Position numbers and translations under genes: made by a program. 64,000 nucleotides of DNA from the NCBI GenBank assembly GCA_964196115.1, contig CAXMRQ010000035.1, positions 8,149-72,148 of the forward strand. The letters run 5' to 3'. A model generated the notes under the pieces. It did not search any database. It saw nothing but the letters and a program-made list of their open reading frames with translations, and was not told where the DNA came from. The DNA is from an uncultured Gammaproteobacteria bacterium. GTDB taxonomy: Bacteria; Pseudomonadota; Gammaproteobacteria; GCA-001735895. Shown one piece after another: positions 24,218 to 43,990 of the stretch. How positions within the stretch are numbered: position 1 is the stretch's first letter; every line of letters starts with the position of its first letter.

Positions 24218-24639
24218 ATGATCCCAATTTCCCCAGTATCGAGATCAGCGCCGATATTAAAGCCAGTAACAAATGCGACCTTTGTACCAATTCGACCTGT
24301 TGCACCTATGTCACCCAACAGCTAGACACGCCACGTTCGAAGTACGATTTTGAAATCCTGCTGTGGCAAGTCTCACACCGTGGGGTGGGAGTCTACAAAG
24401 ATGATGATGGCTGGTTTGTGATGTTTGATGCGCCCTGTAGCCACCTCGAAATGGATGGACGCTGCGGCATTTACGAAGACCGCCCAACCATATGCCGCAC
24501 CCACGAAAATGATTTCTGCGAATACGACGCCCCGGCTGAAGACGGCTTCGAACTTTATTTTCCCGACTATCCTACGCTACTGGCTTATTGCAAAAAACGA
24601 TTCAAAAAATGGTCTAGCGGAAATCCTGCCCCCGCCTGA
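24214..24639 (+). CDS. YkgJ-family cysteine-cluster protein (putative Fe-S/zinc protein)
   Basis: 141 aa. [10 protein letters not shown] near the N-terminus, then [19 protein letters not shown], the UPF0153/YkgJ pattern. Confidence 0.5.
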
Positions 24640-29000: not shown

Positions 29001-29885
29001 TTAACGCGCGGCCAGTTCGATAATCCAGCTCGCCACTATCGCACTCGCGCGTCGGCCTGTAGAGGGTGGCGCCTGCCTCAGGTAGTAATCAGCAAAGAGA
29101 TGGAATGGCTTGGTAAAAACCTCAACCAGTTCTCCAGACTGTAAATGGCGATCGATGAATGGACGCCTTCCCAGCATAATACCATCGCCACGCTGTGCGG
29201 CCTCAATCGCGATCAGCGAGCCATCAACCGACAGTCCACGCGGCACCTCAACCTCATTCAGTCGATGTTTGCGAAACCACCGGTGCCAGTCATCGTCATA
29301 ACCAAGCACATGAATCAGATCATGTTCAAGTACATCGGCCGGCACTTTTGGTCGCTGCCGGTGAGAAAACAGTTTTGCTGAGCATACCGGGGTTATCGTT
29401 GCGGTTAAAAGTTTACTCACACTGGAATCATTGGTTCCTCCCCCCTGTATGAATATTTCCAGATCGGCCCTGGGTGAATTGTGATATTCGAAATTCTGGT
29501 CAAGGGTCATAATACGCAGGTCGATGTTGGTATGGAGTTCTTGCAGAGACTTGAGTTGTGGCACTAACCAGAGCGTCGCTACACCCGACGTACAGCGCAG
29601 GGTCACGGTCTGGTTCTGTCTATCCGGAAATAACTGATCGGTAACCGAATCGAGACGATCCAGCGCCTCATGTACCGCTTCGAGGTAAGCCTGTCCCGTA
29701 CTGGTCAGCGATAAGCGACGGTGATGCCTGACAAACAAAGTTGTGTCCAGATAGGCTTCCAACTGGCGCATCTGCTGGCTGACCGCTGCCTGTGAGATTT
29801 TGAGATCGTCGGCAGCCACCGAAAAACTCAAACGGCGACCAGCCGCTTCGAAGGTTCGTAGAATATTGAGTCGTGGACGTCTCAA
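29001..29885 (-). CDS. LysR-family transcriptional regulator (GcvA-like)
   Basis: 294 aa. N-terminal HTH LRTFEAAGRRLSFSVAADDLKISQAAVSQQMRQLE. Divergent from the mttB-family gene. Confidence 0.85.
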   Translation of the reverse strand: MRRPRLNILRTFEAAGRRLSFSVAADDLKISQAAVSQQMRQLEAYLDTTLFVRHHRRLSLTSTGQAYLEAVHEALDRLDSVTDQLFPDRQNQTVTLRCTSGVATLWLVPQLKSLQELHTNIDLRIMTLDQNFEYHNSPRADLEIFIQGGGTNDSSVSKLLTATITPVCSAKLFSHRQRPKVPADVLEHDLIHVLGYDDDWHRWFRKHRLNEVEVPRGLSVDGSLIAIEAAQRGDGIMLGRRPFIDRHLQSGELVEVFTKPFHLFADYYLRQAPPSTGRRASAIVASWIIELAAR

Positions 29886-29898
29886 GAGCTCATTTTCG

Positions 29899-29915
29899 TA
29901 TAAGATTTACTTATA
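29899..29915. promoter_or_regulatory. Candidate LysR-type T-N11-A box
   Basis: TATAAGATTTACTTATA (ATAAG-N5-CTTAT dyad) lies in the 114-bp divergent intergenic region between the LysR gene and the mttB-family gene. Confidence 0.4.
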
Positions 29916-29999
29916 AATATTGACAGTAATTATTGTTTGACGCAAGTCTCGATGCTACTTAGAGTCGGTGCATAAATTACAGCTCTGGATGCAGACGCA

Positions 30000-31520
30000 A
30001 TGAACTTTTTTTCCTACCTGACAAGCGACGATATCCAATACGTACACCAGGCATCTCTGGAGATCCTCGAAGAAGTTGGCCTGCTGGTTCGTAATGAGAA
30101 AGCAAGGAAGCGATTCGCCGAACACGGTGCGATTGTCGACCATAAAACAGAGATGGTGCGCATCCCATCGGCGGTCGTCGAGAAGTACCGCATGCTGGTG
30201 CCACCGTCTATCACTCTGCGCGGCCGCGACCCGGCTTTCGACGTCACATTCCCGCGCAAACTGCCGGTAATCGCAACGGCCAGTTCGGCGCCGGATATCG
30301 TCGACCCGGTGAGTGGCGTGACACGCCGTTCGAGATCCGATGATATTGCCCGCATTGCTCAATTGATTAACGAGCTTCCAGGCTACGATGTATTCTCGAT
30401 ATCGACGCTCGCCGATGATGCGCCCAAAGATCAGTTCAGTCTGACTCGATTTTACGCCGCGCTGAAAAATTGTGTCAAACCCTGTCGGACATCGGTTTAC
30501 AATATTCGTGAAGCCGAGCAGGTAATCAAACTCGGTGAACTAATCGCAGGGTCGAAACCGGCCTACTGGGAACGTCCTTTCATCAACTTCGGTTATTGCG
30601 CGATTGTTTCGCCTTTGACGATGGACTTCGATAGCACCGAAACGCTGATGTACTTTGCCGAGAAAGGTATCACGGCTTACGGCACGATCGCCCCGATGGG
30701 TGGCTTGAGCACACCACTATCGCTACCGGGCATGCTGGTGATTATGAACGCAGAATGGCTTGCAGCAGCCACATTGGCACAAATGTCGAAGGCTGGAACC
30801 GCTCAAATTTATAACTTTCTGCCCGTGTTTGCCGATATGCGCGATGGTGCCTATGCACCAGGTGCAATAGAAGTCGGGATGATGAATTCGGCCGTATGTC
30901 AGATGGCACGATTTTACAACGTGCCTGCCGGTGGATATCTTGGCCTGACTAACTCCAAAGTCGCCGACGCTCAATCGGGCTTCGAAAAAGGTATGTCACC
31001 ACTGATGGGGGCAATGTCCGGTGCCGATTTCATCGTCATGGGCGGGCTGCAGGATGCGCTGATGTCGTTTGATTTCGGTCAGGCCACAATCGACAATGAG
31101 ATCGCCCTGATGATCAAACGAGTTCGCCAGGGCTTCGGGTTTTCGAAACAAAATGCCTCGTTACAGGAGATCAAGGATACTGGAGCCGCAGGCATGTTCG
31201 CGGCAAATCCGGCAACCCTGGAGCGCATGCACAGCGCAACCATGATGCCGGAGCTTGCCGACAGAAAACTGCGTGAGCATTGGGAACTGGAAGGCAGCTC
31301 GACTATACATCAGCGAGCGCTGAACAAGGCGTTCGACATTCTTTCGGCCCCAAATTCGGCCGCATTTGATGCCGATGTGGATGCTCGAATCCGCGCCGAA
31401 TTCGGAGGAATGGTCGCAGGTGACGCGATGCTTCAGGATGGATGGAAGCGTTTTGATATCGGTAGTAACGTTCCTGTGCGCGAAAGACGTCCCAATCGTC
31501 GTCGTCAGCGACAACACTAA
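30000..31520 (+). CDS. MttB-superfamily (trimethylamine methyltransferase-like, COG5598) protein, non-pyrrolysine type
   Basis: 506 aa. The N-terminus L.SDDI..VH.ASLEILEEVG..V.NE.A...F.EHGA.VD is characteristic of MttB/MtgB-family TIM barrels. The frame is uninterrupted, with no in-frame TAG. Confidence 0.85.
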   Translation: MNFFSYLTSDDIQYVHQASLEILEEVGLLVRNEKARKRFAEHGAIVDHKTEMVRIPSAVVEKYRMLVPPSITLRGRDPAFDVTFPRKLPVIATASSAPDIVDPVSGVTRRSRSDDIARIAQLINELPGYDVFSISTLADDAPKDQFSLTRFYAALKNCVKPCRTSVYNIREAEQVIKLGELIAGSKPAYWERPFINFGYCAIVSPLTMDFDSTETLMYFAEKGITAYGTIAPMGGLSTPLSLPGMLVIMNAEWLAAATLAQMSKAGTAQIYNFLPVFADMRDGAYAPGAIEVGMMNSAVCQMARFYNVPAGGYLGLTNSKVADAQSGFEKGMSPLMGAMSGADFIVMGGLQDALMSFDFGQATIDNEIALMIKRVRQGFGFSKQNASLQEIKDTGAAGMFAANPATLERMHSATMMPELADRKLREHWELEGSSTIHQRALNKAFDILSAPNSAAFDADVDARIRAEFGGMVAGDAMLQDGWKRFDIGSNVPVRERRPNRRRQRQH

Positions 31521-31552
31521 AAAAGCAATAATTAAGATAATCTCAGTAGGAC

Positions 31553-31747
31553 TAGTACTCCTTCAATGATATATCTTAGGATTCAGCCAGTCAGGAAGCG
31601 GTTAGCTGCTAGGCGTGCGACTGTAGGACTAGCCGTAGCTAATTCAAGGGAGCACACCAAAAGTAGGCGCTTTAGGCGACAACCAGATGACCGCTTCCTG
31701 GCTGGCCCGGAGGGAGCGCCCCAACATATATCATGGAAGGAGTACTA
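31553..31747 (+). promoter_or_regulatory. ~195-nt nested inverted-repeat RNA structure that sequesters the SD of the downstream gene (regulatory leader or MITE-like insertion)
   Basis: The outer arms 31553-31574 (TAGTACTCCTTCAATGATATAT) and 31726-31747 (ATATATCATGGAAGGAGTACTA) pair at 21 of 22 positions, and the right arm contains GGAAGGAG, the SD for the ATG at 31750. The inner arms 31586-31602 and 31690-31706 pair at 17 of 17 positions, including one G-U. Confidence 0.5.
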
Positions 31748-31749
31748 AC

Positions 31750-34263
31750 ATGGCGGCATCACTTCCAACCAGCGCGCGCATTGCCATCATTGGCGGAGGC
31801 GTGATAGGTACCGCCATTGCGTATCACCTGACCCGGTCCGGCGAAAAGGATGTCGTGTTGCTTGAAAAGTCACGTCTAACCGAGGGCGCTACCTGGCACG
31901 CGGCCGGGCTGGTCGGCCAATTTCGTTCGCAGCAAAACCTGATGAGCCTGATGAACGACAGCGTCAAATTGTTCGACATTCTGGCCGAAGAAACCGGCCA
32001 GGAAATCGACTGGCACAAATTTGGCAGTCTCAGACTGGCGCAAACCGAAGACCGCTGGAAGGAACTCCTCAAATCTCATTCCGCGGCACAGGCGGTTGGC
32101 TTTGAGATGAATTTGTTAACACCAAACGAAGCGCGTGACTTATACCCGCTAATTGAAACCGATGATTTAGTCGGTGCGGCCTTCATTCCGGCAGACGGGT
32201 ACATCGACCCGAACAGTCTGACTCAGGCCTATGCAAAGGGAGCCAGGGCCAACGGTGGTAGAATTTTCGAGGGCGTGATGGTCAATAATCTGTTACGTGA
32301 TGGTGATCGCATCACTCACCTGGTCACCGAACAAGGTAACATTGAAGTCGAAACAGTGATTAATGCTGCGGGACTCTGGGCGCGTCAGGTCGGCTGGATG
32401 GCAGGGGTGGAAATCCCTGCAGGCGTGGTCGAGCATCAATACCTGGTAACCGAGAAATCCGATCTAATCCCCGCTGGCTTACCGGCGTTGCGCGATCCGG
32501 ATGGGGGATTTTATGCAAAGCCGGAACCCGGTGCGCTAGCCATCGGTGGATGGGAAAAGCAAACCAACAGCGTTAACCCTAAGGAGGGTTTTCCGTGGCA
32601 AAACGAGCGCCATCTGTTTGATGGCGATATGGATCGCCTGTCAGAGTTCTTCGAACCAGCGATACGACGTATTCCTGTCCTCGGCGAACTCGGCATGCGC
32701 ACTATCGTCAATGGACCGATACCCATCTCACCCGATGGCGAACCCATCATAGGACCTGTTCCCGGATTGAGCAATTTCTTTGCCGCCTGCGCATTCACCT
32801 CCGGCATAGCCGCATCGGGCGGAGCCGGTAAAGCTGTCGCTAACTGGATTCTGGAAGGTGATCCGGGACTCGATCTGTGGCCATTCGACATTCGACGCTT
32901 CGGGCCCCTGCACGCCGGTCAGAAATTCCTGCATGACCGCGCGGTTGAAAGCTATAGTAAGTACTATGCGATCCACTGGCCGGGGGAGGAACTGGAGTCA
33001 GCCCGAGGCGTGCGGCGCAGTCCTCTTTATCAAACACTGAAAGATCAGGGCGCGGTGTTCGGATCGAAGTTCGGCTGGGAGCGAGCAAACTGGTTCGCAC
33101 ACGGTGATATCCCGCAGCAGGAAGTCTACGGATTCGACCGGCCACAACAGGCGCTTACGGTCGGTCGCGAGCATTTGGCAGCACGTGAGGGCGTAGTACT
33201 GATCGATATGTCCTCATTTACCAAATTTGAAATCAGTGGGAGCCAGGCCTGTCAGTTCCTGAATTACCTGGCGGTCGCTAATGTCGATAAGGAATCAGGG
33301 GGAGCAACCTATACGCAGTTATGCAACGAGCGAGGTGGGATCGAAGCCGACGTCACCATCATCCGGCGTTCGGAGGATTGCTTCTGGCTGATCACCGGGT
33401 CCGGCCTCGGCGTGCGCGACAGGCACTGGATCGAAAGCCACCTGCACGGTATTTTGGATCGACATATCAATCCGGATCGCTTCAGTAACGAGCAATGGAC
33501 TCGATCAGGTGAGCGATCGATTCGGCCAAACGCCCCCGGTTTCGATAAAGTAGAGCTGCGCGATATTACCTCGGCCTATGGTGTGATTAATCTTGCCGGC
33601 CCATTAGCACGCAAGGTATTACAGAAGGTTTGCGACGAAGACCTGAGCCACGAGGCCTTCCCTTTCATGGCCGCAAGAGACATCAGAATCGGATATGCGC
33701 CTGCCCTGGCCTACCGAGTTACCTATATCGGCGAACTAGGATGGGAACTCTATATTCCATCTGAATACCTTCAGTATGTATACGAAGAGCTACAGCAAGC
33801 TGGCGAGGAATTCGGTATCACCAATATAGGCTACCGGGCGATCGACAGTCTGCGCCTTGAAAAGCGTTATCTCGCCTGGGGCGTCGACATCACCCCCGAC
33901 TACAACCCTTTCGAAGCCGGATTACAGTTTCTTATCGACTGGGATAAGGGCGATTTTATCGGTGCCGAGGCCCTCGCCGAGATCAGGCAACAAGGGGTTC
34001 GGCAAAAACTGGTATGCCTTGCTCTGCATAATCCTTTGCCGGTATTCGGTGGTGAAGCTATTTTTTGCGATGACAAGGTAGTTGCGCAAACCACCAGCGG
34101 CAACTTCGGCTACTCTATTGGCAAGAGCCTGGTGCTCGGGTACCTGCCGGTTGATGTGCTCGACCGCAGTGATTTCGGAGTCGAGGCATTTGGTGAGCGG
34201 ACCCCGGCATCTATAGTGAAAGGCGCGATCTACGATCCGAAGCGGGAAAAAATTCTCTGCTAG
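31750..34263 (+). CDS. Dimethylglycine/sarcosine-dehydrogenase-like flavoprotein (DAO FAD domain fused to GcvT folate-binding aminomethyltransferase domain)
   Basis: From MAASLPTSARIAIIGGGVIGTAIAYHL: Rossmann GGGxxG, ATWHAAGL (the histidine that carries covalent FAD in DMGDH/SARDH), and C-terminal GcvT-like motifs (GYRAIDSLRLEKRY, GGEAI...). The track start at 31687 lies inside the upstream hairpin and lacks an SD. Confidence 0.85.
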   Translation: MAASLPTSARIAIIGGGVIGTAIAYHLTRSGEKDVVLLEKSRLTEGATWHAAGLVGQFRSQQNLMSLMNDSVKLFDILAEETGQEIDWHKFGSLRLAQTEDRWKELLKSHSAAQAVGFEMNLLTPNEARDLYPLIETDDLVGAAFIPADGYIDPNSLTQAYAKGARANGGRIFEGVMVNNLLRDGDRITHLVTEQGNIEVETVINAAGLWARQVGWMAGVEIPAGVVEHQYLVTEKSDLIPAGLPALRDPDGGFYAKPEPGALAIGGWEKQTNSVNPKEGFPWQNERHLFDGDMDRLSEFFEPAIRRIPVLGELGMRTIVNGPIPISPDGEPIIGPVPGLSNFFAACAFTSGIAASGGAGKAVANWILEGDPGLDLWPFDIRRFGPLHAGQKFLHDRAVESYSKYYAIHWPGEELESARGVRRSPLYQTLKDQGAVFGSKFGWERANWFAHGDIPQQEVYGFDRPQQALTVGREHLAAREGVVLIDMSSFTKFEISGSQACQFLNYLAVANVDKESGGATYTQLCNERGGIEADVTIIRRSEDCFWLITGSGLGVRDRHWIESHLHGILDRHINPDRFSNEQWTRSGERSIRPNAPGFDKVELRDITSAYGVINLAGPLARKVLQKVCDEDLSHEAFPFMAARDIRIGYAPALAYRVTYIGELGWELYIPSEYLQYVYEELQQAGEEFGITNIGYRAIDSLRLEKRYLAWGVDITPDYNPFEAGLQFLIDWDKGDFIGAEALAEIRQQGVRQKLVCLALHNPLPVFGGEAIFCDDKVVAQTTSGNFGYSIGKSLVLGYLPVDVLDRSDFGVEAFGERTPASIVKGAIYDPKREKILC

Positions 34264-34322
34264 TGATTAGTGTCTAGTCAATTTAAAATTAGCCATGTAC
34301 CCAGCATCGAGAAGAGAAAATA

Positions 34323-35618
34323 ATGCCATTTGAAGAACTGAATTTTCCTGCGGGCATTCATTTACTGGCTCGCTGGCAGGCCAATGACCCAATGGCGGTA
34401 CGGCGCCTGAAGGATATTTTTGATGCCACGATAAAAGGGCGGTATGACAAAGTTTTCAAGAGGCCAGTACCACAGGATTCGGTGCATGTTGCAGGCCCCG
34501 TAGATCTGATGACGCTAACCATTATGCACCGCCTTTATGGTCTGACATCGGCTGAGTTTTACAAGCAAGACCCGGAACGTTTTGTACGCACCTCGTTAAT
34601 GACGCAAAAATTACTGGGCATGCCCAAGCTTTATATAAGCTGGCCAGTCTATGGGTTTACCGCAGAAACCCTGGGGCAAGAAATGATTTACTCGGATCAA
34701 TACTCCCCCGGCACGGATCCGGATAAACCGTTAGCCAATTCTGACAACTGGCAAGATATTGGGACACCTGCGATGAATACAGGCATCCCCAAATTACTCG
34801 ATCAGATCCTGGCCTGTTATCAGCACTTAACTGGACTCAACCCTGTTTTGCACTTAACCGCAGCTTATAGCCTGGCAGCAGATATCTATGGACAGGAACA
34901 AATAATCACCGCCCTGACCCATGAACCCGAATTTGTGAATAAATTCCTCGACCACCTGGCAGACACCGTTTTGAAACCCTGGATGGATCATTTTTTCAAC
35001 CAGTACCCCAACGGATGGGTCGAACTAAGCGATGCTTCAGGATCGCCTTTTTTTATCGGCCCGCAAAACTGTAAAAACGTCGCTATTCGGTCGACTCAGC
35101 GGCTAATCGCTGCAAATCCATGGGGGAAACGCGTCTATGATGCCAATTACCGTGGCGATTACGTAACCCAGGCAAACAAAAGAAATTCTTCGTCATCGAG
35201 GCGTAGGAACCCCAGAAAAACCGACCCTGAGCACCCAAGCCTAGTTGAATTATTTGATATAAAAAATAGCGTTTGCCCTGATTATGTGATTCGTCTCGCC
35301 GAAGATCGCACAGCTGTTAGTTTTTATGTGGAGCAGGCAATTAGGTGCAATATCCCACTGTTTATGGGCATTGGCGCTACCCTGATCGACCGTAACAGCA
35401 TTGCCGATCTGGAAATCGCAAAACAGGAAATCAAGGCCATGGCCTGTGAATATACAGAGGCGATTAAGACGGTTGCCAAATCCATCGAGAAGAATGGTTA
35501 TAATTTAAGAGTACCCCCCTGGCCAGGCACAATTTATTTTGAAGACATCAGCGCTGAGTCCAACTTTGATTTAATCGAAATTATTATCGACACCGTACTA
35601 AAGCAGGGTGCACTGTGA
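34323..35618 (+). CDS. Conserved-looking hypothetical protein; possible URO-D/MtaA-like (MT2-type) TIM-barrel resemblance
   Basis: 431 aa with no motif I can assign confidently. The spacing of segments (..AEFYKQDPERFV...Q.LLG.........YGFTAETLGQE.......P......; ....GLNPVLHLTAAYSLAADIYGQEQIITALTHEPEFVNKFLDHLADTVL..W) is reminiscent of the uroporphyrinogen-decarboxylase/methylcobamide methyltransferase family. It contains a basic low-complexity insertion, NKRNSSSSRRRNPRKTDPEH. Confidence 0.55.
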   Translation: MPFEELNFPAGIHLLARWQANDPMAVRRLKDIFDATIKGRYDKVFKRPVPQDSVHVAGPVDLMTLTIMHRLYGLTSAEFYKQDPERFVRTSLMTQKLLGMPKLYISWPVYGFTAETLGQEMIYSDQYSPGTDPDKPLANSDNWQDIGTPAMNTGIPKLLDQILACYQHLTGLNPVLHLTAAYSLAADIYGQEQIITALTHEPEFVNKFLDHLADTVLKPWMDHFFNQYPNGWVELSDASGSPFFIGPQNCKNVAIRSTQRLIAANPWGKRVYDANYRGDYVTQANKRNSSSSRRRNPRKTDPEHPSLVELFDIKNSVCPDYVIRLAEDRTAVSFYVEQAIRCNIPLFMGIGATLIDRNSIADLEIAKQEIKAMACEYTEAIKTVAKSIEKNGYNLRVPPWPGTIYFEDISAESNFDLIEIIIDTVLKQGAL

Positions 35619-35634
35619 ATCGCAGTATCTGTTA

Positions 35635-36123
35635 ATGGACAAGCTATTGGTCAGCGCCTGCCTGCTCGGCGACCCGGTTCGTTACGACGGACGAAGCAAG
35701 TCATTCGAAAACACCGAGTTGCAGGAACTGGTAAAGCAGGACCGAGTCATAGCATTCTGCCCCGAAGTGGCGAGTGGATTGCCAACCCCACGGGATTCAG
35801 CCGAGATTCAACAGGGCGATGGAGTTGCCGTGATCGATAAGCTAGGCAAGGTCACTACCGTCAATGGCGATGATGTAACTGATTTTTTTCTGGGAGGTGC
35901 CAATCTGGCGCTTAAATTATGCCAGCAGCACCAGATATCGGTCGCTATTTTGACTGAATTCAGTCCTTCCTGCGGTAGCAAGCAAATTTACGATGGCAGT
36001 TTTAGCAGGACCAAGCGCTGGGGAATTGGCGTAACCACCGCCCTGCTAAAACGACACGGTATCGCTATTTTCAGTCAATACCAGATCGGTGCTGCAATAA
36101 ACAGTTTAGCCAACAGAAATTAA
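35635..36123 (+). CDS. DUF523 protein (TudS/YbbK-like [4Fe-4S] family)
   Basis: From MDKLLVSACLLGDPVRYDG: the SACLLG..VRYDG, FCPEV.GGLPTPR-like (AFCPEVASGLPTPR) and SPSCGS motifs define DUF523. Confidence 0.7.
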   Translation: MDKLLVSACLLGDPVRYDGRSKSFENTELQELVKQDRVIAFCPEVASGLPTPRDSAEIQQGDGVAVIDKLGKVTTVNGDDVTDFFLGGANLALKLCQQHQISVAILTEFSPSCGSKQIYDGSFSRTKRWGIGVTTALLKRHGIAIFSQYQIGAAINSLANRN

Positions 36124-36137
36124 AAACAGGAACCTTT

Positions 36138-36704
36138 ATGAATAATTATTCTTTGAATCGCGATACTGTAGTTGATTTCATACTCGATCTGTTCAGACGT
36201 CGAGGCGCTGAAGAGTACATGGGTGAACCAGTGAGCATGGCGCAACACATGGAACAAACTGCAGCCTGTGCCTTGGCCGATGGCGCTTCCGACGACCTGG
36301 TGATCGCCGCTCTGCTACATGACATCGGCCATTTTGTCGGCAATTTTCCAATCGACGCTCTCGAAAACGGCGTCGATAACCTGCACGAAGAGGCTGGCGC
36401 CAATTTTCTCCAGGCGTTCTATCCAGTCGCAGTCACTGAACCAATTCGTTTGCACGTGGCTGCAAAGAAATATTTGTGCGCTACCGACGAGCAATACTTT
36501 GCCTGTCTTTCAGAGGCTTCAGTTCAATCCTTGCAGGTTCAAGGTGGTCCGATGACAGAAGCCGAAGTCAAAAAGTTTAAATCTAGCCCTTATCATCAGT
36601 CTGCTGTTCAGGTAAGACGTTATGATGATGATGGCAAGGTTGCAGGCCTGGATATTAAATCGGTTGAAAACTACAGGCACAAGCTAGAATCGTTATTATT
36701 ATAA
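36138..36704 (+). CDS. HD-domain protein of the PhnZ/TmpB type (phosphonate-associated HD, putative diiron oxygenase)
   Basis: 188 aa. Y.GEPVS...H..Q.A..A...GA.D.LV.AALLHDIGH, HEEAGANFL, RLHVAAKKYL, LQVQGGPM...E...F and VRRYDD.GKV match, from memory, the PhnZ-like 'phosphonate degradation associated HD' family in size and metal-ligand spacing (H, HD, H, H, D). Confidence 0.55.
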   Translation: MNNYSLNRDTVVDFILDLFRRRGAEEYMGEPVSMAQHMEQTAACALADGASDDLVIAALLHDIGHFVGNFPIDALENGVDNLHEEAGANFLQAFYPVAVTEPIRLHVAAKKYLCATDEQYFACLSEASVQSLQVQGGPMTEAEVKKFKSSPYHQSAVQVRRYDDDGKVAGLDIKSVENYRHKLESLLL

Positions 36705-37023: not shown

Positions 37024-37052
37024 ACTTTACTGTTAACAGAACAGTATTAAAG

Positions 37053-37076
37053 GGGTAGCAATGCTGCCCTTTTTTT
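37053..37076 (+). terminator. Rho-independent terminator after the SBP remnant
   Basis: GGGTAGC-AAT-GCTGCCC forms a 7-bp stem (one G-U), followed by TTTTTTT. Confidence 0.55.
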
Positions 37077-37276: not shown

Positions 37277-38203
37277 TCAGAAATTCAGTTCAACCCAATA
37301 GGGTCGATGATCCGATCCATCCGCGGCTTGATCAACCCAGGCACGTTCAACCTGTCGGGCCAGGCCCGGGGAGAGGAAGCAGTAGTCCAGGCATAAACCA
37401 TGGCCGGGTTTACGTTCGGGCGGATCAGGCCACCAACTGGCGCGATCATCCTGTCCCTGCCTGGTGCTAGTCCAACTGTCGACGAAGCCATCAAGATGCG
37501 CAACTCGACCATAGCAGGGGTCTAACGCACCCACCATTTTTTCGTATTCAGCGGTATCTGGCAGGCTGTTAAAGTCGCCCATCACGACAGCCTCCCCGGG
37601 CATTTGCGGTGGGGTCTCATCATTACTCCAGTTCAGCTCAGCCATATGCCTGGCCTCGACCGGATCAACATTCTCGTCCACCTCACCACCGGTCCAGGCA
37701 CCGCCGCTCACCTGAGCATTTCGGTGGAACTCTAATATCCTGTCAATCTGCATCAGGCGTTCACGCGAGGAGACTGCAGATAGATGCAGCGAATAAATTC
37801 TAAGGGGACCCGACGGTGTATCTATCACGCATTCAATAGCTCCCGTATCCATGTTCAAACTGTCCACCGTACCCAACTTTGGCAAAACAATTAAACGAGA
37901 CATACTAATGGGCCAGCGAGAAAGCACCATGGGACCAAATTGGCGTCGCCGATTGAGCACGATGCCTTCATCGTTGCGCGTACTGGCATCCACATCGAAT
38001 GCTGAGCCATATGCCCAATAGAACTCCTGTAAATGTTTTCCAAGAATTTCAGGCTGATCAGTCATGCCGCTGTGCAGCCAGAAACGCTCTACCTCCTGCA
38101 AAGAGATAATGTCCGCGTCGCGTACGGTCTCGGCGATGCGCCCAAGATCTATTTGCTGATCGAGCCCCAGGCCGAAGCGAATATTATAAGTAACAAGCTT
38201 CAT
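37277..38203 (-). CDS. Endonuclease/exonuclease/phosphatase (EEP) family protein
   Basis: From MKLVTYNIRFGLG: N-terminal (L/V).YNI, SLQEV, and C-terminal SDHRPY are the EEP catalytic motifs. It lies 108 bp downstream of the ABC ATPase on the same strand. Confidence 0.75.
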   Translation of the reverse strand: MKLVTYNIRFGLGLDQQIDLGRIAETVRDADIISLQEVERFWLHSGMTDQPEILGKHLQEFYWAYGSAFDVDASTRNDEGIVLNRRRQFGPMVLSRWPISMSRLIVLPKLGTVDSLNMDTGAIECVIDTPSGPLRIYSLHLSAVSSRERLMQIDRILEFHRNAQVSGGAWTGGEVDENVDPVEARHMAELNWSNDETPPQMPGEAVVMGDFNSLPDTAEYEKMVGALDPCYGRVAHLDGFVDSWTSTRQGQDDRASWWPDPPERKPGHGLCLDYCFLSPGLARQVERAWVDQAADGSDHRPYWVELNF

Positions 38204-38347
38204 ATTTCCCTTCAAACAAATGCGTCTTTGAGTTCGCAACCTGGTAAAAATTGGGGTTCTGATTCCACCCGCACTGATATGATCTTAGCACGAACACAAA
38301 ATAAAGGAGGCAATATACAAGTGTAAGCGTATGAACTTTTACCCTGG

Positions 38348-39988
38348 TTATGTGGGTGGCTGGTCTTGCGCACGTTCCTTCAATAACCCGGTTAGCCAGT
38401 CAGGATCCATTTCCGGAACTGAAGATAATAATAGCTTGGTATAGTCAGGATAAGGGGGCGCCAGGATTTCACTTTTCATCCCCTGTTCGACGACTCTTCC
38501 TTCCAGCATTACCACAATTTGATCGGAGATAGCTTTCACCGTAGCGATGTCGTGGGTGATGAAAATATAGGTCAGACCCAGTTCTCTTTGCAGGCGTAGT
38601 AATAATTCCAGAATGCCTTTCTGTACGATCTGGTCGAGCGCTGATGTGACTTCGTCACATATAATTAATTCAGGATTAGCAGCCAGGGCACGCGCAATAC
38701 AAATACGTTGTTTCTGGCCACCGGAAAGTTCGGCTGGCAGTCTGTTGATAAAGCTTTCATCGAGTTCGATCATTTCCATTAATTCCAACAATCGCTGATC
38801 ACGTTCCCTGCCTTTCAAACCTAGATAAAACTCGAGTGGTCTGCCGATGATGTCACGGATTGTTTGTCGCGGATTCATCGCCGTATCGGCCATTTGATAA
38901 ATCATCTGAATCTTTTGCAGTTGATCGACACTACGCTCTTTTAATGCCGGCGGCAGGGGTTTACCGTTATATAAGATCTGCCCCTTGCTCGGTGGTAACA
39001 ATCCGGTGATAGCGCGGGCAGCCGTCGACTTACCCGAACCGGATTCGCCCACTATCGCCACCGTGTGTCCGCGTGGCACCTCGATCGAAACATCATCCAG
39101 TACCTTGGCACTACCCGTGTAACTGGCATCAATGTGGTCAACTCTGAGAATGATATCCTCCGACTCCTCTTCCTGTTTTTCGATAGAGCGAACCGACCAT
39201 AACGATTTGGTGTATTCTTTTTCCGGATTTGCCAGCATTGTTCGGGTATCGGCGTCTTCGATGGTTTCTCCGTAACGCAAAACTTTGATCACATCGGCCA
39301 TCTGCGCGACCACCGCTAAATCGTGAGTAATATAAATTGCGGCGGTGTGGTATTGCTCGACAATTTCTCGCATCGAGGCTAATACTTCTACCTGGGTTGT
39401 AACATCGAGCGCAGTCGTAGGTTCATCGAAAATAATTAAATCAGGTCGCGGTGACATTGCCATCGCGGTCATCACGCGTTGTAGCTGACCGCCAGAAACC
39501 TGGTGCGGATAGCGGTCTCCAATTGAGTCTGGATTCGGCAGTTGCAGATCGCGATATAGAGCTCGAGCATCCGCTTTGGCTTCACTTTCAGACTTTATGC
39601 CATGGCGAACAGCCGACTCAACGGTTTGATTGATGAGCCTATGCGAGGGATTGAAAGACGCTGCGGCGGACTGGGCGACATAGGCGATGCGCGAACCGCG
39701 TAGCTTGCGCTTATCATCTTCCGAAGCTTTGATTAAATCGATGCCATCGAAGATGATACTGCCGCCATTGATTTTACAGCCTGGTTTTGCAAACCCCATC
39801 GCTGCCAAACCCAGAGTTGATTTTCCTGCACCGGATTCACCGATCAGGCCCATGATTTCACCGCGCTTCAATACAACATCAACGCCTTTTATAATCTCAT
39901 GCCAACGGTCGTCACTATAGCCATCGATTACGATGCCGTGCATTTCCAGCAGGATATCGCCTTTTTGCCCTTTTTTATCGGTACTCAT
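38348..39988 (-). CDS. ABC transporter ATP-binding protein with two fused NBDs (DppD/DppF-type)
   Basis: 546 aa. Two Walker A motifs (GESGAGKST, GESGSGKST), two signature motifs (VSGGQLQR, LSGGQKQR) and two Walker B motifs (LIIFDEPT, LIICDEVT). Confidence 0.9.
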   Translation of the reverse strand: MSTDKKGQKGDILLEMHGIVIDGYSDDRWHEIIKGVDVVLKRGEIMGLIGESGAGKSTLGLAAMGFAKPGCKINGGSIIFDGIDLIKASEDDKRKLRGSRIAYVAQSAAASFNPSHRLINQTVESAVRHGIKSESEAKADARALYRDLQLPNPDSIGDRYPHQVSGGQLQRVMTAMAMSPRPDLIIFDEPTTALDVTTQVEVLASMREIVEQYHTAAIYITHDLAVVAQMADVIKVLRYGETIEDADTRTMLANPEKEYTKSLWSVRSIEKQEEESEDIILRVDHIDASYTGSAKVLDDVSIEVPRGHTVAIVGESGSGKSTAARAITGLLPPSKGQILYNGKPLPPALKERSVDQLQKIQMIYQMADTAMNPRQTIRDIIGRPLEFYLGLKGRERDQRLLELMEMIELDESFINRLPAELSGGQKQRICIARALAANPELIICDEVTSALDQIVQKGILELLLRLQRELGLTYIFITHDIATVKAISDQIVVMLEGRVVEQGMKSEILAPPYPDYTKLLLSSVPEMDPDWLTGLLKERAQDQPPT

Positions 39989-39991
39989 GCT

Positions 39992-40915
39992 TTAATGCTC
40001 ATCTTTTAGGCCGCTGGTTTTATGCAGGAACCAGTCGACTACGAAATTGACTGCGACGGTCAACAGTGCAATCGCCGCTGCAGGCAACATCGGTGTCATG
40101 GCCGCGGTTAAATCATATTCGGCAAATTGAATCAGACCGGCGGTTTCACGAACCATCGAGCCCCAGTCAGCGGTCGGCGGCTGAATACCAACGCCGAGAA
40201 AAGACAATGCCGCAATGGTCAGGAATACGAAGCAAAAGCGTAATCCAAACTCGACGATTAATGGCGGCAGAATATTGGGTAATATTTCTCTGCGCATAAC
40301 CCAGCTTAAACCTTCACCTCTGAGCCTGGCGGCTTCTACATAATCCATCACCACCACATTGAGCGACACCGCTCGAGTCACACGAAAAACACGGGTGGCG
40401 TCGAGTACCGCGATAATCAAGATCAAATTCGTCGCAGTTGCGCCAAACATGGATATCAGGATCAGCGCGAAAATCAGGCTGGGTATGGCCATTAAAACAT
40501 CGACTGAGCGGCTGATAAGGTCATCCAGCCATCCCCGGCTGAGAGCTGCGGTAATGCCGAGACTTCCGCCGATTAAAAATGCGAGCACGGTGGTCGCAAA
40601 GGCGATGCCGACTGTATTTCGAGCGCCGTAAATAAGCCTTGAGAGAACGTCGCGGCCCAATTGATCGGTACCGAACATGAATTCGTCGCTCCAGGGTGCG
40701 TAGGACAGATCAAATATTTCGGCCTCGCCATACGGTGCCAGTAGCGGCGCGAATAGCGCGAAGAATACATAAATCAATATAACGACCATGCCGAACAGCG
40801 CCGTCGGTGGCGCGGATTTAAGACCACGCCAGATATTTTCTAGCAGTGTTCGACGAGCTTTGAGCATGCTGACTTCGCCCGCTGCTGAATAGCCCTGTTC
40901 TCCACCATTGCTCAT
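39992..40915 (-). CDS. ABC transporter permease (DppC/OppC-like)
   Basis: 307 aa, 6 TM helices, with an EAA-like loop (YVEAARLRGEG). Confidence 0.9.
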   Translation of the reverse strand: MSNGGEQGYSAAGEVSMLKARRTLLENIWRGLKSAPPTALFGMVVILIYVFFALFAPLLAPYGEAEIFDLSYAPWSDEFMFGTDQLGRDVLSRLIYGARNTVGIAFATTVLAFLIGGSLGITAALSRGWLDDLISRSVDVLMAIPSLIFALILISMFGATATNLILIIAVLDATRVFRVTRAVSLNVVVMDYVEAARLRGEGLSWVMRREILPNILPPLIVEFGLRFCFVFLTIAALSFLGVGIQPPTADWGSMVRETAGLIQFAEYDLTAAMTPMLPAAAIALLTVAVNFVVDWFLHKTSGLKDEH

Positions 40916-40925
40916 GAATTAGTTC

Positions 40926-41909: not shown

Positions 41910-42022
41910 AATGCTCCCCTCCTCAAACCAGCAGGCCTATTCGATTCCCGCTAAATAGCAGCCAGAGTAATAATAATTATAGAGAGGTAATGGACCGCAG
42001 CCCATTACCTCAGTCCTTCAGT

Positions 42023-43829: not shown

Positions 43830-43935
43830 AAGGCCACAAAAAGGCAAAATGGGACGTTACCCTTTACGATTTTTCTAAGCCTCGATTCATACGGGCACGG
43901 AGACTAAATTGGAGGATCTAAAAGGGTAGTGTCCC

Positions 43936-43975: not shown

Positions 43976-43990
43976 CCTCAAGTTGACTGA

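What the first reader, a model, noticed from the sequence alone, without database searches (positions are those of the whole stretch)
29001..36704. LysR-controlled MttB-family / DMGDH-like / orphan 431-aa / DUF523 / PhnZ-like cluster: candidate corrinoid-protein-less quaternary-amine or trimethylammonio-phosphonate catabolic pathway in an aerobe
Seen in sequence:
- A divergent LysR gene is followed by five co-directional, tightly spaced genes.
- Gene 1 is a 506-aa MttB-superfamily protein with no in-frame TAG, so it is the non-pyrrolysine type.
- Gene 2 is a FAD/GcvT fusion carrying the ATWHAAGL covalent-flavin histidine motif of dimethylglycine and sarcosine dehydrogenases.
- Gene 3 is a 431-aa protein I cannot place in a family.
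- Gene 4 is a DUF523 protein.
- Gene 5 is a 188-aa HD protein with PhnZ-like ligand spacing.

Established knowledge:
- Characterised non-Pyl MttB homologs (MtgB, MtpB, MtcB, MtyB) demethylate betaines in anaerobes. They need a dedicated corrinoid protein plus a second methyltransferase.
- The role of the many homologs in aerobic marine bacteria is unresolved.
- PhnZ and TmpB cleave 1-hydroxy-2-amino- or 1-hydroxy-2-trimethylammonio-ethylphosphonate to glycine or glycine betaine plus phosphate. They normally pair with a 2-OG dioxygenase (PhnY*/TmpA).

What is missing here: I see no B12-binding DxHxxG protein, no RamA-type activase and no 2-OG dioxygenase.

Inference: the cluster could link C-P cleavage by the HD enzyme to betaine demethylation (MttB homolog plus the orphan protein as a possible methyl acceptor or transferase) and then to DMG oxidation with tetrahydrofolate capture. 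Such a route has not been described as a unit.
Basis: partly seen in the sequence, partly recalled or inferred. Interest (0 to 1): 0.8.

Follow-up and report, generated by a model that had tools for sequence, protein, structure and literature searches.

The report
Methylamine operon beside orphaned phosphonate oxygenase
A marine bacterium carries an operon for stripping methyl groups from a choline-like compound, inserted next to a phosphonate-cleaving gene, and its "unplaceable" gene belongs to a small uncharacterised family of methyltransferase-like proteins that repeatedly sits beside both kinds of pathway in ocean bacteria.

Summary
All six ORFs exist as described, and the family calls are right for five of them. 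The sixth, the "orphan" 431-aa protein, can be placed. It is a confident (β/α)8 barrel of the URO-D/MtaA/MetE superfamily. Its nearest relatives are MtaA/CmuA-type corrinoid methyltransferases, one of them fused to a B12-binding domain, but it lacks the MtaA zinc motif.

Across 31 dereplicated loci with this gene, a TmpB-like HD oxygenase lies within 6 kb in 12 (usually with a bona fide TmpA, sometimes fused to it). An MttB + DMGDH-like pair lies nearby in 9–10. Deeper branches carry glycerophosphodiester-uptake genes instead.

The window HD is TmpB-like (48% identity, all di-iron ligands). Synteny shows an ancestral hemF–CxxC–tmpB–tmpA–HAD locus. The LysR–MttB–DMGDH–barrel block was inserted upstream of it, and tmpA was lost and replaced by an EEP + Opp-ABC block. 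The HD gene is still under purifying selection.

The MttB homolog lacks all four glycine-betaine-binding residues of MtgB, so glycine betaine is an unlikely substrate. "Corrinoid-protein-less" is untested: no B12 domain occurs in about 1 Mb of flanks, but aerobes are known to encode MtgC/MtgD/RamA at unlinked sites.

Verdict: a real, conserved and apparently undescribed association, with the mechanism only partly inferred.

The parts
29001..29885 (-). LysR-family regulator (GcvA-like), divergent from the operon
   Evidence: HTH_1 + LysR_substrate. Best NCBIfam match is GcvA at 232.6 bits, below its cutoff. Conserved at 74-81% next to the MttB gene in L004, L007, L011, L012 and L018.
29899..29915 (.). 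LysR-type T-N11-A dyad TATAAG-N5-CTTATA
   Evidence: Perfect 6-bp inverted repeat. The core ATAAG-N5-CTTAT(A) is invariant in five genomes whose coding dS is about 1.1; the first base of the 6-bp arm varies.
29937..29965 (+). sigma-70-like promoter (TTGACG-17-TAGAGT) for the MttB operon
   Evidence: Consensus scan. The -35 block is invariant and the -10 block nearly so in the alignment of five loci.
30000..31520 (+). Non-pyrrolysine MttB-superfamily methyltransferase, not MtgB-type
   Evidence: PF06253 at 252.7 bits; TIGR02369 at 357.5 < 525. 171 bits to MtgB and 165 to MttB. Has S/G/gap/L at MtgB Y97/R312/H348/F356. Its 90%-identity cluster has 260 members.
31687..34263 (+). DMGDH/SARDH-family flavoprotein with a folate-binding GcvT domain (probable true start 31750)
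   Evidence: DAO, FAO_M, GCV_T and GCV_T_C domains. 559 bits to rat DMGDH 4PAB. ATWHAAGL motif. Always directly follows MttB in the window clade and in L002, L080 and L090.
34323..35618 (+). Zn-less MtaA/CmuA-superfamily (β/α)8 barrel: the 'orphan' and the conserved hub of the association
   Evidence: AF2 pLDDT 88, pTM 0.88. Foldseek top hit is MtaA 4ay8/4ay7, then HemE, then MetE. Outgroups all best-match MtaA/CmuA models, and P0187 is fused to an MtgC-like B12 domain. No HxC Zn motif. Small family. Neighbourhood statistics.
35608..36123 (+). DUF523 / TudS-like (2-thiouracil desulfurase family) protein; probably a passenger
   Evidence: PF04463 at 145.8 bits. Present only in the window clade, and at varying positions in L004, L007, L065 and L081.
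36138..36704 (+). TmpB-like HD-domain di-iron oxygenase (C-P bond cleavage), orphaned from tmpA
   Evidence: TmpB model 237 bits (< 300), Phn-HD 196.5 (< 214.6). 174 bits and 48% identity to TmpB 6NPA; all ligands plus YxxE present. Syntenic with tmpB-tmpA-HAD loci. dN/dS 0.07-0.10.
37049..37073 (+). Intrinsic-terminator-like hairpin ending the operon
   Evidence: 11-bp stem followed by a T run; the strongest terminator-like site in the scan.
37277..38239 (-). Endonuclease/exonuclease/phosphatase (EEP) family hydrolase; candidate headgroup-releasing phosphodiesterase
   Evidence: PF03372 at 69.5 bits. Another EEP-family (PF03372) gene lies two genes upstream of the barrel gene, separated by an IMPase gene, in L087; homology to the window's EEP was not tested. 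Lies in the slot vacated by tmpA.
38348..45592 (-). Opp/Dpp-type ABC transporter (fused ATPase, two permeases, two SBP_bac_5 proteins)
   Evidence: Orthologs at 65-91% lie next to the barrel gene in L003 and L025, and two SBPs lie between MttB and the barrel gene in L016.
46320..47033 (+). HAD-family hydrolase, the ancestral downstream neighbour of tmpB-tmpA
   Evidence: 63% identical to the HAD that follows TmpA in L096. It lies directly after HD in L004 and L009. Generic HAD-IA matches only.
24214..24633 (+). CxxCxxCC protein, the ancestral upstream neighbour of tmpB (left edge of the insertion)
   Evidence: 76% identical to the gene that directly precedes HD in L096-L098.

Best explanation
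**What it is.** The cluster is a LysR-activated catabolic operon for a trimethylammonium headgroup compound of the choline or 2-trimethylaminoethylphosphonate (TMAEP) type. It is probably not for free glycine betaine. It was inserted immediately upstream of an ancestral tmpB-tmpA phosphonate-oxygenase locus. tmpA was later lost, and its slot was filled by an EEP hydrolase plus an Opp-type ABC importer.

**Shown.**
- The gene families.
- The insertion and tmpA-loss history.
- Continued purifying selection on tmpB.
- The recurrent linkage of the 431-aa barrel to TmpA-TmpB, to MttB-DMGDH pairs and to glycerophosphodiester-uptake genes.

**Inferred mechanism.**
1. The MttB homolog (MT1) removes the first N-methyl of the quaternary amine onto Co(I) of a corrinoid carrier encoded elsewhere.
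2. The 431-aa MtaA/CmuA-like barrel is the second methyltransferase of that relay. It either unloads the methyl-corrinoid to an acceptor that is not a zinc-activated thiol, or acts as a separate substrate:corrinoid methyltransferase for the betaine made by TmpB.
3. The DMGDH-like flavoprotein oxidises the remaining N-methyl groups and captures them as methylene-tetrahydrofolate.
4. The TmpB-like HD enzyme cleaves a 1-hydroxy-2-(methyl)ammonioethylphosphonate to phosphate plus the corresponding N-methylglycine. Its hydroxylase now has to be supplied from elsewhere in the genome.

DUF523 is most likely a passenger.
For: - **Families and operon structure:**
- **Barrel identity:** the AF2 model has MtaA as its top PDB hit. 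The nearest sequence outgroups all best-match MtaA/CmuA models, and one is fused to an MtgC-like B12 domain.
- **Linkage in dereplicated loci:** HD within 6 kb in 12 of 31, TmpA in 10, MttB in 9, DMGDH-like in 10.
- **Independent arrangements:** TmpA-TmpB(fused)-barrel in the distant clade; MttB-DMGDH-barrel with three unrelated MttB subfamilies; and the same MttB/DMGDH (86%/80% identical) with a 41%-identical barrel in the opposite orientation in L090.
- **Headgroup theme:** GDPD, EEP, IMPase and Ugp-like ABC genes sit next to the barrel in L087, L089, L090 and L091. DUF1989, DAO and gcvPH sit next to it in L092, L088 and L003.
- **MttB substrate:** MttBs adjacent to the barrel lack the carboxylate-binding Arg312 and the aromatic pair of MtgB, whereas unlinked paralogs keep the Arg.
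- **HD:** it is TmpB-like with an intact active site, is syntenic with bona fide tmpB-tmpA (TmpA 424-436 bits > 400), and has dN/dS of 0.07-0.10.
- **Precedent:** aerobes encode the corrinoid protein and MT2 at unlinked sites (PMC12478193).
Against: - No corrinoid-binding domain is found in the window or in about 1.0 Mb of flanks of 92 loci, and there is no cobalamin riboswitch. Marine mtgBCD genes are often co-located.
- The barrel lacks the H-x-C zinc ligands that define MtaA/MtbA. It scores far below every curated methyltransferase cutoff (24.8 against 244). It has an unusually acidic set of invariant residues. A non-methyltransferase activity is therefore possible.
- In several loci the barrel gene stands alone or next to unrelated genes (L005, L038, L063).
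- HD-seeded sampling found three locus types with tmpB-tmpA but no barrel gene.
- No substrate is identified for any enzyme.
- tmpA is absent, so the HD enzyme's substrate supply in this organism is unexplained.
- There are no expression data.
Confidence: 0.45

Rival explanations
1. Two unrelated units lie side by side. The LysR-MttB-DMGDH-barrel block is a mobile methylamine-demethylation module that happened to land next to a tmpB-tmpA locus. The HD gene is functionally independent of it, serving as a phosphate-scavenging remnant that uses a hydroxylase encoded elsewhere. The five-gene 'pathway' is then an accident of insertion.
For: - Synteny shows that hemF-CxxC-HD-TmpA-HAD is ancestral and that the trio is an insert.
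- The trio occurs without HD in L011, L012 and L018, and on the other side of HD in L007.
- Between the same genomes, dS of the trio is about 1.1 while HD and HAD are saturated. LysR-MttB-DMGDH GC is 0.525-0.549 against flanks mostly 0.44-0.50.
- The same MttB/DMGDH module is found in a very different genome, L090.
- tmpB-tmpA loci without the barrel gene are common.
Against: - The barrel gene is juxtaposed with TmpB-like HD genes independently in a distant clade, with a different gene order (TmpA-TmpB-barrel, about 10 dereplicated loci) and without MttB.
- TmpB-like genes are estimated in under 1% of marine bacteria (PMC10574752), so repeated adjacency is not expected by chance.
- In the window, L004, L009 and L025 the HD gene lies 3-14 bp from the preceding gene in the same operon frame.
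Confidence: 0.25
2. One reading: this is a corrinoid-protein-independent route. The HD enzyme makes glycine betaine from hydroxy-TMAEP. The MttB homolog and the 431-aa protein together demethylate it without a dedicated corrinoid protein, either by direct transfer or with free cobalamin. DMGDH finishes the pathway.
For: - No B12-binding domain occurs in the 64-kb window or in about 1 Mb around 92 related loci, including about 13 loci with MttB.
- No cobalamin riboswitch is present.
- Marine mtgBCD genes are otherwise often co-located.
- The barrel lacks the Zn site of thiol-methylating MT2s and shares a superfamily with cobalamin-independent MetE.
Against: - The MttB homolog lacks all four glycine-betaine-binding residues, including Arg312, which is conserved in all characterised carboxylate-betaine members.
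- All characterised MttB-family enzymes methylate a corrinoid (PMC13080624, PMC12155760, PMC12478193).
- The barrel's closest relatives are corrinoid methyltransferases, one fused to a B12 domain.
- Ruegeria shows that unlinked corrinoid components suffice.
- tmpA is missing through secondary loss, not by design.
- The genome is an incomplete MAG, so absence elsewhere cannot be shown.
Confidence: 0.12
3. The 431-aa barrel is not a methyltransferase. It is a URO-D-fold decarboxylase, hydrolase or lyase that acts on a phospho(no)diester-derived headgroup, for example a step between headgroup release and N-demethylation or C-P cleavage. MttB and DMGDH work with partners encoded elsewhere.
For: - No Zn ligands.
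- It is below every curated methyltransferase and HemE cutoff.
- Family-specific invariant acidic and polar residues (E234, D356-R357-N358, E407-D408, N275-Y276-R277) sit at the C-terminal ends of the barrel strands.
- Some contexts are dominated by GDPD, EEP, IMPase, LacI, PfkB and sugar-type ABC genes with no methyltransferase nearby.
- A ureidoglycolate-lyase-fold protein is a frequent neighbour.
Against: - The nearest sequence relatives and the top structural hit are all on the MtaA/CmuA side of the superfamily, not the HemE side.
- The outgroups share the N-[WY]-x-G-[DE] strand motif, and one carries a B12 domain.
- The barrel recurs with MttB/DMGDH, DUF1989, DAO and gcvPH, all of which are C1/N-methyl enzymes.
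Confidence: 0.18

Closest known systems
TmpA/TmpB oxidative C-P cleavage of 2-(trimethylammonio)ethylphosphonate (Leisingera caerulea; PDB 6NPA)
   Same: The HD protein is most similar to TmpB: 174 bits and 48% identity, with the H...HD...H...H...D ligands and the YxxE loop. Its syntenic orthologs (about 70% identical) are followed by a dioxygenase that passes NCBI's TmpA equivalog cutoff.
   Different: - It is below the TmpB equivalog cutoff (237 < 300).
- No tmpA is present in 64 kb. It was lost secondarily.
- The locus is described in the literature as a two-gene operon (PMC10574752). Here and in many metagenomic loci a third gene, an MtaA-like barrel, is attached. In some loci TmpA and TmpB are fused.
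MtgB/MtgC/MtgD(+RamA) glycine betaine demethylation in aerobic marine bacteria (Ruegeria pomeroyi; PMC12478193) and MtgBCA in anaerobes
   Same: Both have an MttB-superfamily non-Pyl methyltransferase in an aerobe. In both, downstream DMG/sarcosine-type dehydrogenases lie nearby and the corrinoid components need not be linked.
   Different: - The window MttB is only 28% identical to MtgB and lacks Y97, R312, H348 and F356.
- The partner encoded next to it is an MtaA/URO-D-fold barrel, not a pterin-binding MtgD/MtgA.
- No MtgC-type gene is seen in any related locus.
Methanogen MttB-MttC-MtbA (MT1, corrinoid protein, URO-D-fold MT2) and CmuA-type methyltransferase-corrinoid fusions
   Same: Pairing an MttB-family MT1 with a URO-D/MtaA-fold protein is the methanogen-type architecture. 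MtaA is the top structural hit. A near relative, P0187, has the CmuA-like arrangement of a methyltransferase barrel plus a B12 domain.
   Different: - No H-x-C...C zinc site, so no CoM- or thiol-type acceptor.
- 10-13% identity and TM 0.57-0.73.
- About 90 extra residues, including an N-terminal helical extension and a disordered basic loop at 281-301.
- The hosts are aerobic proteobacteria, and no corrinoid protein gene is nearby.
Dimethylglycine/sarcosine dehydrogenase (DMGDH, PDB 4PAB/5L46) and DMGO
   Same: It has the same four-domain architecture and the covalent-FAD His motif, and scores 559 bits to rat DMGDH.
   Different: The substrate is unknown. The gene is directly coupled to an MttB that is unlikely to make dimethylglycine, and paralogs only 26-34% identical fill the same position in other loci.
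PhoF (fungal PhnY-PhnZ fusion)
   Same: The related loci L042, L046, L050, L054 and L057 encode a single 569-587-aa ORF that fuses the 2-OG dioxygenase and the HD oxygenase.
   Different: The fusion is bacterial and of the TmpA-TmpB type, and it is not present in this window.

Membership tests
MttB superfamily (PF06253) | Full-length match to the MTTB TIM-barrel profile above the gathering score | tested here: met
   252.7 bits against a cutoff of 25, covering residues 4-465.
Pyl-type trimethylamine methyltransferase MttB (TIGR02369 equivalog) | Score at or above the equivalog cutoff, and an in-frame UAG (pyrrolysine) | tested here: not met
   357.5 < 525. The ORF is uninterrupted, with no internal stop.
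MtgB glycine betaine:corrinoid methyltransferase | Glycine-betaine-binding residues Y97, F356 (cation-pi) and R312, H348 (carboxylate), as defined in PMC13080624 | tested here: not met
   S / G / gap / L at these columns, both in the pairwise HMMER alignment and in a 21-sequence MAFFT alignment. Identity to MtgB is 28%.
MtgBCD-type aerobic system (PMC12478193) | Cognate corrinoid protein (MtgC), pterin methyltransferase (MtgD) and a RamA-type activase in the genome | not testable with these tools
   No B12 domain in the 64-kb window or in 92 loci. MtgD and RamA were not probed. The source is a MAG whose longest contig is 77 kb, and in Ruegeria these genes are unlinked.
DMGDH/SARDH family | DAO + FAO_M + GCV_T + GCV_T_C architecture | tested here: met
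   All four domains are above their cutoffs. 559 bits to 4PAB.
DMGDH/SARDH family | Covalent 8-alpha-N3-histidyl-FAD motif (S/T-W-H-A-A-G-L) | tested here: met
   'EGATWHAAGLVGQ' appears in the translation. That this His is the attachment site is from established knowledge and was not tested here.
DMGDH/SARDH family | Dimethylglycine or sarcosine as substrate | not testable with these tools
   No substrate-determinant analysis was possible.
TmpB ((R)-1-hydroxy-2-trimethylaminoethylphosphonate oxygenase, NF049941) | Score at or above the equivalog cutoff | tested here: not met
   237.3 < 300. Relatives score 223-273.
TmpB/PhnZ HD-domain mixed-valent di-iron oxygenases | H...HD...H...H...D iron ligands and the YxxE substrate loop | tested here: met
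   Y, E, H, H, D, H, H and D are all conserved at PhnZ positions 24, 27, 34, 58, 59, 80, 104 and 161. The roles of these residues are taken from PMC8177086.
TmpB/PhnZ HD-domain oxygenases | Paired 2-OG/Fe(II) hydroxylase (TmpA or PhnY*) that makes the 1-hydroxy substrate | tested here: not met
   No TmpA-like sequence in the window (tblastn). Syntenic relatives have TmpA at 424-436 bits > 400. L007 has a remnant.
PhnZ (TIGR03276 Phn-HD) | Score at or above the cutoff | tested here: not met
   196.5 < 214.6. 33% identity to PhnZ against 48% to TmpB.
MtaA/MtbA methylcobamide:CoM methyltransferase (MT2) | URO-D-type (β/α)8 fold | tested here: met
   Foldseek top hits are 4ay8/4ay7, E = 4e-8, TM 0.57-0.60 (query) and 0.70-0.73 (target).
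MtaA/MtbA methylcobamide:CoM methyltransferase (MT2) | Zinc-binding H-x-C...C motif that activates the thiol acceptor | tested here: not met
   The family has 'ANYRGD' and the outgroups have N-[WY]-x-G-[DE] on the strand after the SDAxxSP motif, with no conserved His/Cys pair. The position of the motif in MtaA is from memory, and the MtaA alignment ends just before it.
MtaA/MtbA/CmuA family (NF004889, TIGR01463) | Score at or above the curated cutoff | tested here: not met
   24.8 against 244.
Uroporphyrinogen decarboxylase HemE (PF01208 / TIGR01464) | Score at or above the gathering or equivalog cutoff | tested here: not met
   PF01208 at 17.2 < 23.9. No TIGR01464 hit.
TudS / DUF523 (PF04463) | Profile match above the gathering score | tested here: met
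   145.8 against 34.7. Cys residues occur in 'SAC', 'FCPE' and 'PSCG'. Their role as [4Fe-4S] ligands is recalled from memory and was not tested.
LysR-type regulators | HTH_1 + LysR_substrate domains and a T-N11-A dyad in the divergent promoter | tested here: met
   Domains. The dyad core ATAAG-N5-CTTAT(A) at 29899-29915 is conserved in five genomes.

The most novel reading that the evidence does not exclude
The 431-aa family is a new class of quaternary-amine methyltransferase. It is a Zn-less MtaA/CmuA-derived barrel that lets aerobic marine bacteria demethylate trimethylammonium headgroups (glycine betaine from TMAEP, choline from glycerophosphocholine). It does so either without a dedicated corrinoid protein, or as a non-MttB MT1 or a novel MT2 that feeds tetrahydrofolate. 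On this reading it is the missing partner of the abundant, unexplained non-Pyl MttB homologs in marine Gammaproteobacteria, and a third component of the TmpAB phosphonate pathway.
Probability: 0.2. Interest if true: 0.85.

Novelty: new variant of a known kind. Interest (0 to 1): 0.6.

Why it matters
Methylated amines (glycine betaine, choline, glycerophosphocholine) and aminophosphonates are major carbon, nitrogen and phosphorus currencies in the ocean. Only in 2025 was it shown how aerobic marine bacteria use MttB-family enzymes, and that was for one subfamily, MtgB.

This window and about 90 related loci show three things:
- A large group of marine MttB homologs is not MtgB-like.
- These homologs and the TmpAB phosphonate oxygenases share a recurrent, uncharacterised MtaA-like partner protein.
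- These modules are mobile and recombine, as seen in the insertion, the tmpA loss and the TmpA-TmpB fusions.

If the barrel protein is a methyltransferase for a trimethylammonium compound, it would add a missing enzyme to marine C1 and phosphonate cycling. It would also refine estimates of cobalamin demand. And it gives a concrete protein to express and assay, which makes the open question of what these MttB homologs do directly testable.

Tried and rejected
- **PDB sequence search with the 431-aa protein.** No hit even at E = 10, so I needed AF2 and Foldseek instead.
- **Genome-contig scan with a single sequence.** It returned only 3 loci. The metagenome scan with alignment A1 gave 80 loci.
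- **B12-domain probe.** I used the P0187 C-terminal domain in tblastn plus a DxHxxG...SxL...GG motif scan against the window and 92 loci. Only noise came back. This is one probe with moderate sensitivity, and MtgD and RamA were not probed.
- **Rfam at gathering thresholds** on the window and 4 loci. No hits, so no cobalamin riboswitch.
- **PhyH-family dioxygenase upstream of TmpA in L073 as PhnY\*.** Only 29-46-bit matches to ectoine and methylphosphonate hydroxylases, so I rejected it as a specific PhnY*.
- **Class-III aminotransferase in L001 as PbfA.** 265 bits against a cutoff of 525, no better than generic transaminase models, so it is not informative.
- **HGT signal.** The GC bump over LysR-MttB-DMGDH is modest (0.525-0.549 against flanks mostly 0.44-0.50), and several other genes in the window are as high. 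Taken alone it is only suggestive.
- **Original TmpAB paper** (Rajakovich 2019, PMC6503667). It is not held, so the residues of TmpB's trimethylammonium pocket could not be checked.
- **Literature searches** for a URO-D-family protein together with TmpA/phosphonate, or with MttB/DMGDH. Zero papers.
- **Residue-level 3-D analysis of the AF2 model.** Not possible because the coordinates are not exposed. The active-site inference rests on DSSP strand ends plus conservation.
- **HD as a decaying relic after tmpA loss.** Considered and rejected on dN/dS of 0.07-0.10 and an intact ligand set.

Full report
**1.

The six ORFs are at the stated coordinates, with spacing typical of an operon (114 bp divergent, then 166, 59, -11 and 14 bp). 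Pfam and NCBIfam confirm the following:
- a LysR regulator, most like GcvA;
- a non-Pyl MttB-superfamily protein (PF06253, 252.7 bits; below the Pyl-type equivalog at 357.5 < 525; no internal stop);
- a four-domain DMGDH/SARDH-type flavoprotein (559 bits to rat DMGDH; ATWHAAGL motif present);
- a DUF523 protein, a family now named 2-thiouracil desulfurase;
- an HD protein whose best models are TmpB (237 bits, cutoff 300), Phn-HD (196.5, cutoff 214.6) and PhnZ1.

A strong terminator-like hairpin follows at 37049-37073. The LysR/MttB intergenic region contains a perfect TATAAG-N5-CTTATA dyad. The dyad core, together with a TTGACG -35 block and a TA(G/A)AGT -10 block, is conserved in five genomes whose coding dS is about 1.1. 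That is a phylogenetic footprint of a LysR-dependent promoter.

**2. The 'orphan' can be placed.**

Gene 3 has weak hits to URO-D (E = 2.7e-3) and to methylcobalamin:CoM methyltransferase (E = 9e-6), and no PDB relative by sequence. An AlphaFold2 model built on 52 homologs is confident (pLDDT 88, pTM 0.88), with one disordered basic loop at 281-301.

Foldseek places it in the URO-D/MtaA/MetE barrel superfamily. The top hit is M. mazei MtaA (E = 4e-8, TM 0.57-0.73), followed by HemE and then MetE, at 10-13% identity.

An exhaustive HMMER search of 1.84 billion representatives shows a small, sharply bounded family. There are about five full-length representatives at 39% identity or more. Scores then drop to 25-30% matches over residues 70-260. 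Those outgroups all best-match MtaA/CmuA models rather than HemE. One of them, P0187, is a natural fusion of this barrel to an MtgC-type B12-binding domain.

The family and its outgroups share an N-[WY]-x-G-[DE] strand motif ('ANYRGD' here) where MtaA is expected to carry its H-x-C zinc ligands. The protein is therefore not a thiol-activating MT2. The conserved 'ELSDASGSP' motif is a superfamily feature also present in MtaA as 'IADPVASP'.

Family-specific invariant residues (E234, N275-Y276-R277, D356-R357-N358, E407-D408, and many aromatics) lie at the C-terminal ends of the predicted strands.

**3. Neighbourhoods identify what the family travels with.**

I assembled 92 loci. After dereplication at 95%, and requiring at least 3 kb on both sides, 31 independent loci remain:
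- a TmpB-like HD gene lies within 6 kb in 12, and is directly adjacent in 10;
- a TmpA-like dioxygenase lies within 6 kb in 10;
- an MttB gene in 9;
- a DMGDH-like gene in 10;
- HD or MttB in 17.

*The distant clade.* Here the barrel is 56-61% identical to the window's, and the order is TmpA-TmpB-barrel. The dioxygenase passes NCBI's TmpA equivalog cutoff (428-440 > 400). In at least five contigs TmpA and TmpB are fused into one 569-587-aa ORF. A ureidoglycolate-lyase-fold protein often follows.

*MttB + DMGDH-like pairs.* They flank the barrel gene in the window clade, and also in L002/L006, L016, L066/L067/L073, L080 and L090. They belong to at least three MttB subfamilies that are only 22-27% identical to the window's. 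Conversely, L090 has MttB and DMGDH that are 86% and 80% identical to the window's, next to a barrel protein of the other deep subfamily (41.5%), in convergent orientation.

*Deeper branches.* In Rhodobacteraceae and Chloroflexi the barrel gene lies behind Ugp-like ABC, GDPD, LacI, EEP and IMPase genes (L087, L089, L090, L091). It also lies next to DUF1989 (L092), a DAO oxidase (L088) and gcvPH (L003).

The common denominator is catabolism of N-methylated, choline- or TMAEP-type headgroups.

**4. What the window's HD gene is, and why tmpA is missing.**

The HD protein is 48% identical to TmpB (6NPA) and 33% to PhnZ. It has all six iron ligands and the YxxE loop (roles from PMC8177086).

I sampled from the HD side, without selecting for the barrel gene. 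Orthologs at 70-77% identity occupy the same chromosomal site in related Gammaproteobacteria: def-LysM-dprA-DUF494-topA-sua5-hemF-CxxC-HD. There they are followed by an intact TmpA (424-436 bits > 400) and a HAD hydrolase, with no barrel gene nearby.

In the window, the CxxC gene is at 24214-24633 and the HAD at 46320-47033. It follows that:
- 24.9-36.1 kb, including LysR-MttB-DMGDH-barrel-DUF523, is an insertion upstream of tmpB;
- the EEP + Opp-type ABC block (37277-45592) sits exactly where tmpA was.

Relatives show intermediate states. L007 keeps an internally deleted tmpA remnant. L004 and L009 have a clean deletion. L025 has the ABC insert. L093 has a split tmpA.

Despite this, the HD gene is under strong purifying selection in tmpA-less genomes (dN/dS of 0.07 and 0.10). 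It is therefore still used. Either a hydroxylase is encoded elsewhere, or the substrate arrives already hydroxylated. This cannot be tested here.

The trio's dS (about 1.1) is lower than that of the flanking HD and HAD genes (saturated). Its GC is slightly raised. Both are consistent with a mobile module.

**5. What the MttB homolog is not.**

MtgB's glycine-betaine site is Y97 and F356 (cation-pi) plus R312 and H348 (carboxylate). R312 is conserved in all characterised carboxylate-betaine members (PMC13080624). The window protein and its clade have S / G / gap / L at these positions. The second barrel-linked subfamily has G / G / E / L. Unlinked paralogs a few kb away keep the Arg. Glycine betaine, and probably any carboxylate betaine, is therefore an unlikely substrate.

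**6. Corrinoid dependence.**

No B12-binding domain is found in the window or in about 1.0 Mb of related flanks, and there is no cobalamin riboswitch. This is notable, because marine mtgBCD genes are often co-located. It is not decisive, for four reasons:
- Ruegeria runs MtgB with unlinked MtgC, MtgD and RamA.
- Every characterised MttB-family enzyme methylates a corrinoid.
- The barrel's own relatives are corrinoid methyltransferases.
- The source genome is an incomplete MAG.

**7. Best reading and rivals.**

*Most likely (about 0.45).* This is a LysR-controlled demethylation operon for a trimethylammonium headgroup compound. MttB acts as MT1. The MtaA-like barrel is the second methyltransferase of a corrinoid relay whose carrier is encoded elsewhere. 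DMGDH-like removes the remaining methyls to tetrahydrofolate. The whole is functionally tied to TmpB-type C-P cleavage.

*Rivals.*
- The HD-trio adjacency in this window is only an insertion accident (0.25). The independent TmpA-TmpB-barrel arrangement elsewhere argues against this.
- The barrel is not a methyltransferase at all (0.18).

DUF523 is linked only within the window clade and at varying positions, so it is probably a passenger.

**8. Novelty.**

The review literature describes tmpAB as a two-gene operon (PMC10574752). No paper in the searchable library links a URO-D-family protein to TmpA/phosphonates or to MttB/DMGDH. All family members are annotated 'hypothetical' or 'uroporphyrinogen decarboxylase family'.

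The components belong to known kinds. The recurrent three-way association and the barrel family itself appear undescribed. I therefore rate it a new variant of a known kind, with interest 0.6.

Noticed in passing
L042:8259-9968, L046:8261-9970, L050:8217-9980, L054:8219-9970, L057:8209-9918: These are natural single-ORF fusions of a TmpA-type 2-OG dioxygenase (440 bits, residues 19-378) and a TmpB-type HD oxygenase (258 bits, residues 386-568). They are a bacterial counterpart of the fungal PhnY-PhnZ fusion PhoF.
   Followed up: partly
window 24214-47033; L007:2013-2567; L093:8570-9689; L004:11300-12605: There is a visible decay series for tmpA at one syntenic site. It is intact in L096-L098 and L095, and split into two ORFs in L093. 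L007 keeps an internally deleted remnant. In L004 and L009 it is cleanly deleted. In the window and L025 it is replaced by an Opp-type ABC block (plus an EEP gene in the window). tmpB stays under purifying selection throughout.
   Followed up: yes
protein P0187 (626 aa): A relative of the 431-aa barrel (32% identity over window residues 72-246) is fused to a C-terminal MtgC-like B12-binding domain containing DxHxxG. This is a CmuA-like architecture in an uncharacterised clade that lacks the MtaA zinc motif.
   Followed up: partly
window 29001-34263; L090:9299-13308: LysR-MttB-DMGDH has raised GC (0.525-0.549) and GC3 (0.53-0.60) compared with flanks that are mostly 0.44-0.50. Near-identical MttB and DMGDH (86% and 80%) occur in L090 beside a barrel protein that is only 41% identical. 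dS of the trio is lower than that of the flanking core genes. Together these suggest a horizontally mobile MttB-DMGDH module.
   Followed up: partly
window 37277-45592 (- strand); L003:1073-6482; L025:3322-8633; L016:6037-9697: An Opp/Dpp-type ABC transporter with SBP_bac_5 binding proteins recurs next to the barrel gene in several lineages. In L016 two SBP genes sit between MttB and the barrel gene. Its ligand is unknown, and cluster-C SBPs are not the usual betaine or choline binders.
   Followed up: partly
L046:11301-11924, L001:11345-11995 and about 14 other loci: A roughly 210-aa protein with a weak C-terminal match to ureidoglycolate lyase (PF04115, 46 bits) often lies directly downstream of the barrel gene, both with and without TmpAB. 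Its function is unexplained, and it is absent from the window.
   Followed up: no
window 31687-31750: The DMGDH-like ORF as listed starts at 31687, but all homologs align from residue 21/22. The ATG at 31750 (M22, just before the GxGxxG motif) is the more likely start.
   Followed up: partly
window 35163-35225 (residues 281-301 of the 431-aa protein): This is a disordered loop rich in Ser, Arg and Lys ('NKRNSSSSRRRNPRKTDPE', pLDDT below 50). It varies in length and sequence across the family and lies between two conserved strand motifs, so it may be a lid or an interaction loop.
   Followed up: no
L073:4014-4904 and homologs in L059, L062, L066, L074: A PhyH-family dioxygenase sits directly upstream of TmpA-TmpB-barrel, and a second TmpA paralog (338 bits) lies a few kb downstream in L042-type loci. 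Several hydroxylases thus surround a single HD oxygenase, which hints at a broader range of N-methyl-AEP substrates.
   Followed up: partly
window 24971-28173: The rest of the insertion between the CxxC gene and GST consists of an arylamine N-acetyltransferase (PF00797), a 259-aa membrane protein, a 235-aa ORF, and an overlapping pair of 140-aa and 126-aa ORFs (possibly ArsR-type). ORFs of similar size sit at the corresponding position in L004. None of these was examined further.
   Followed up: no
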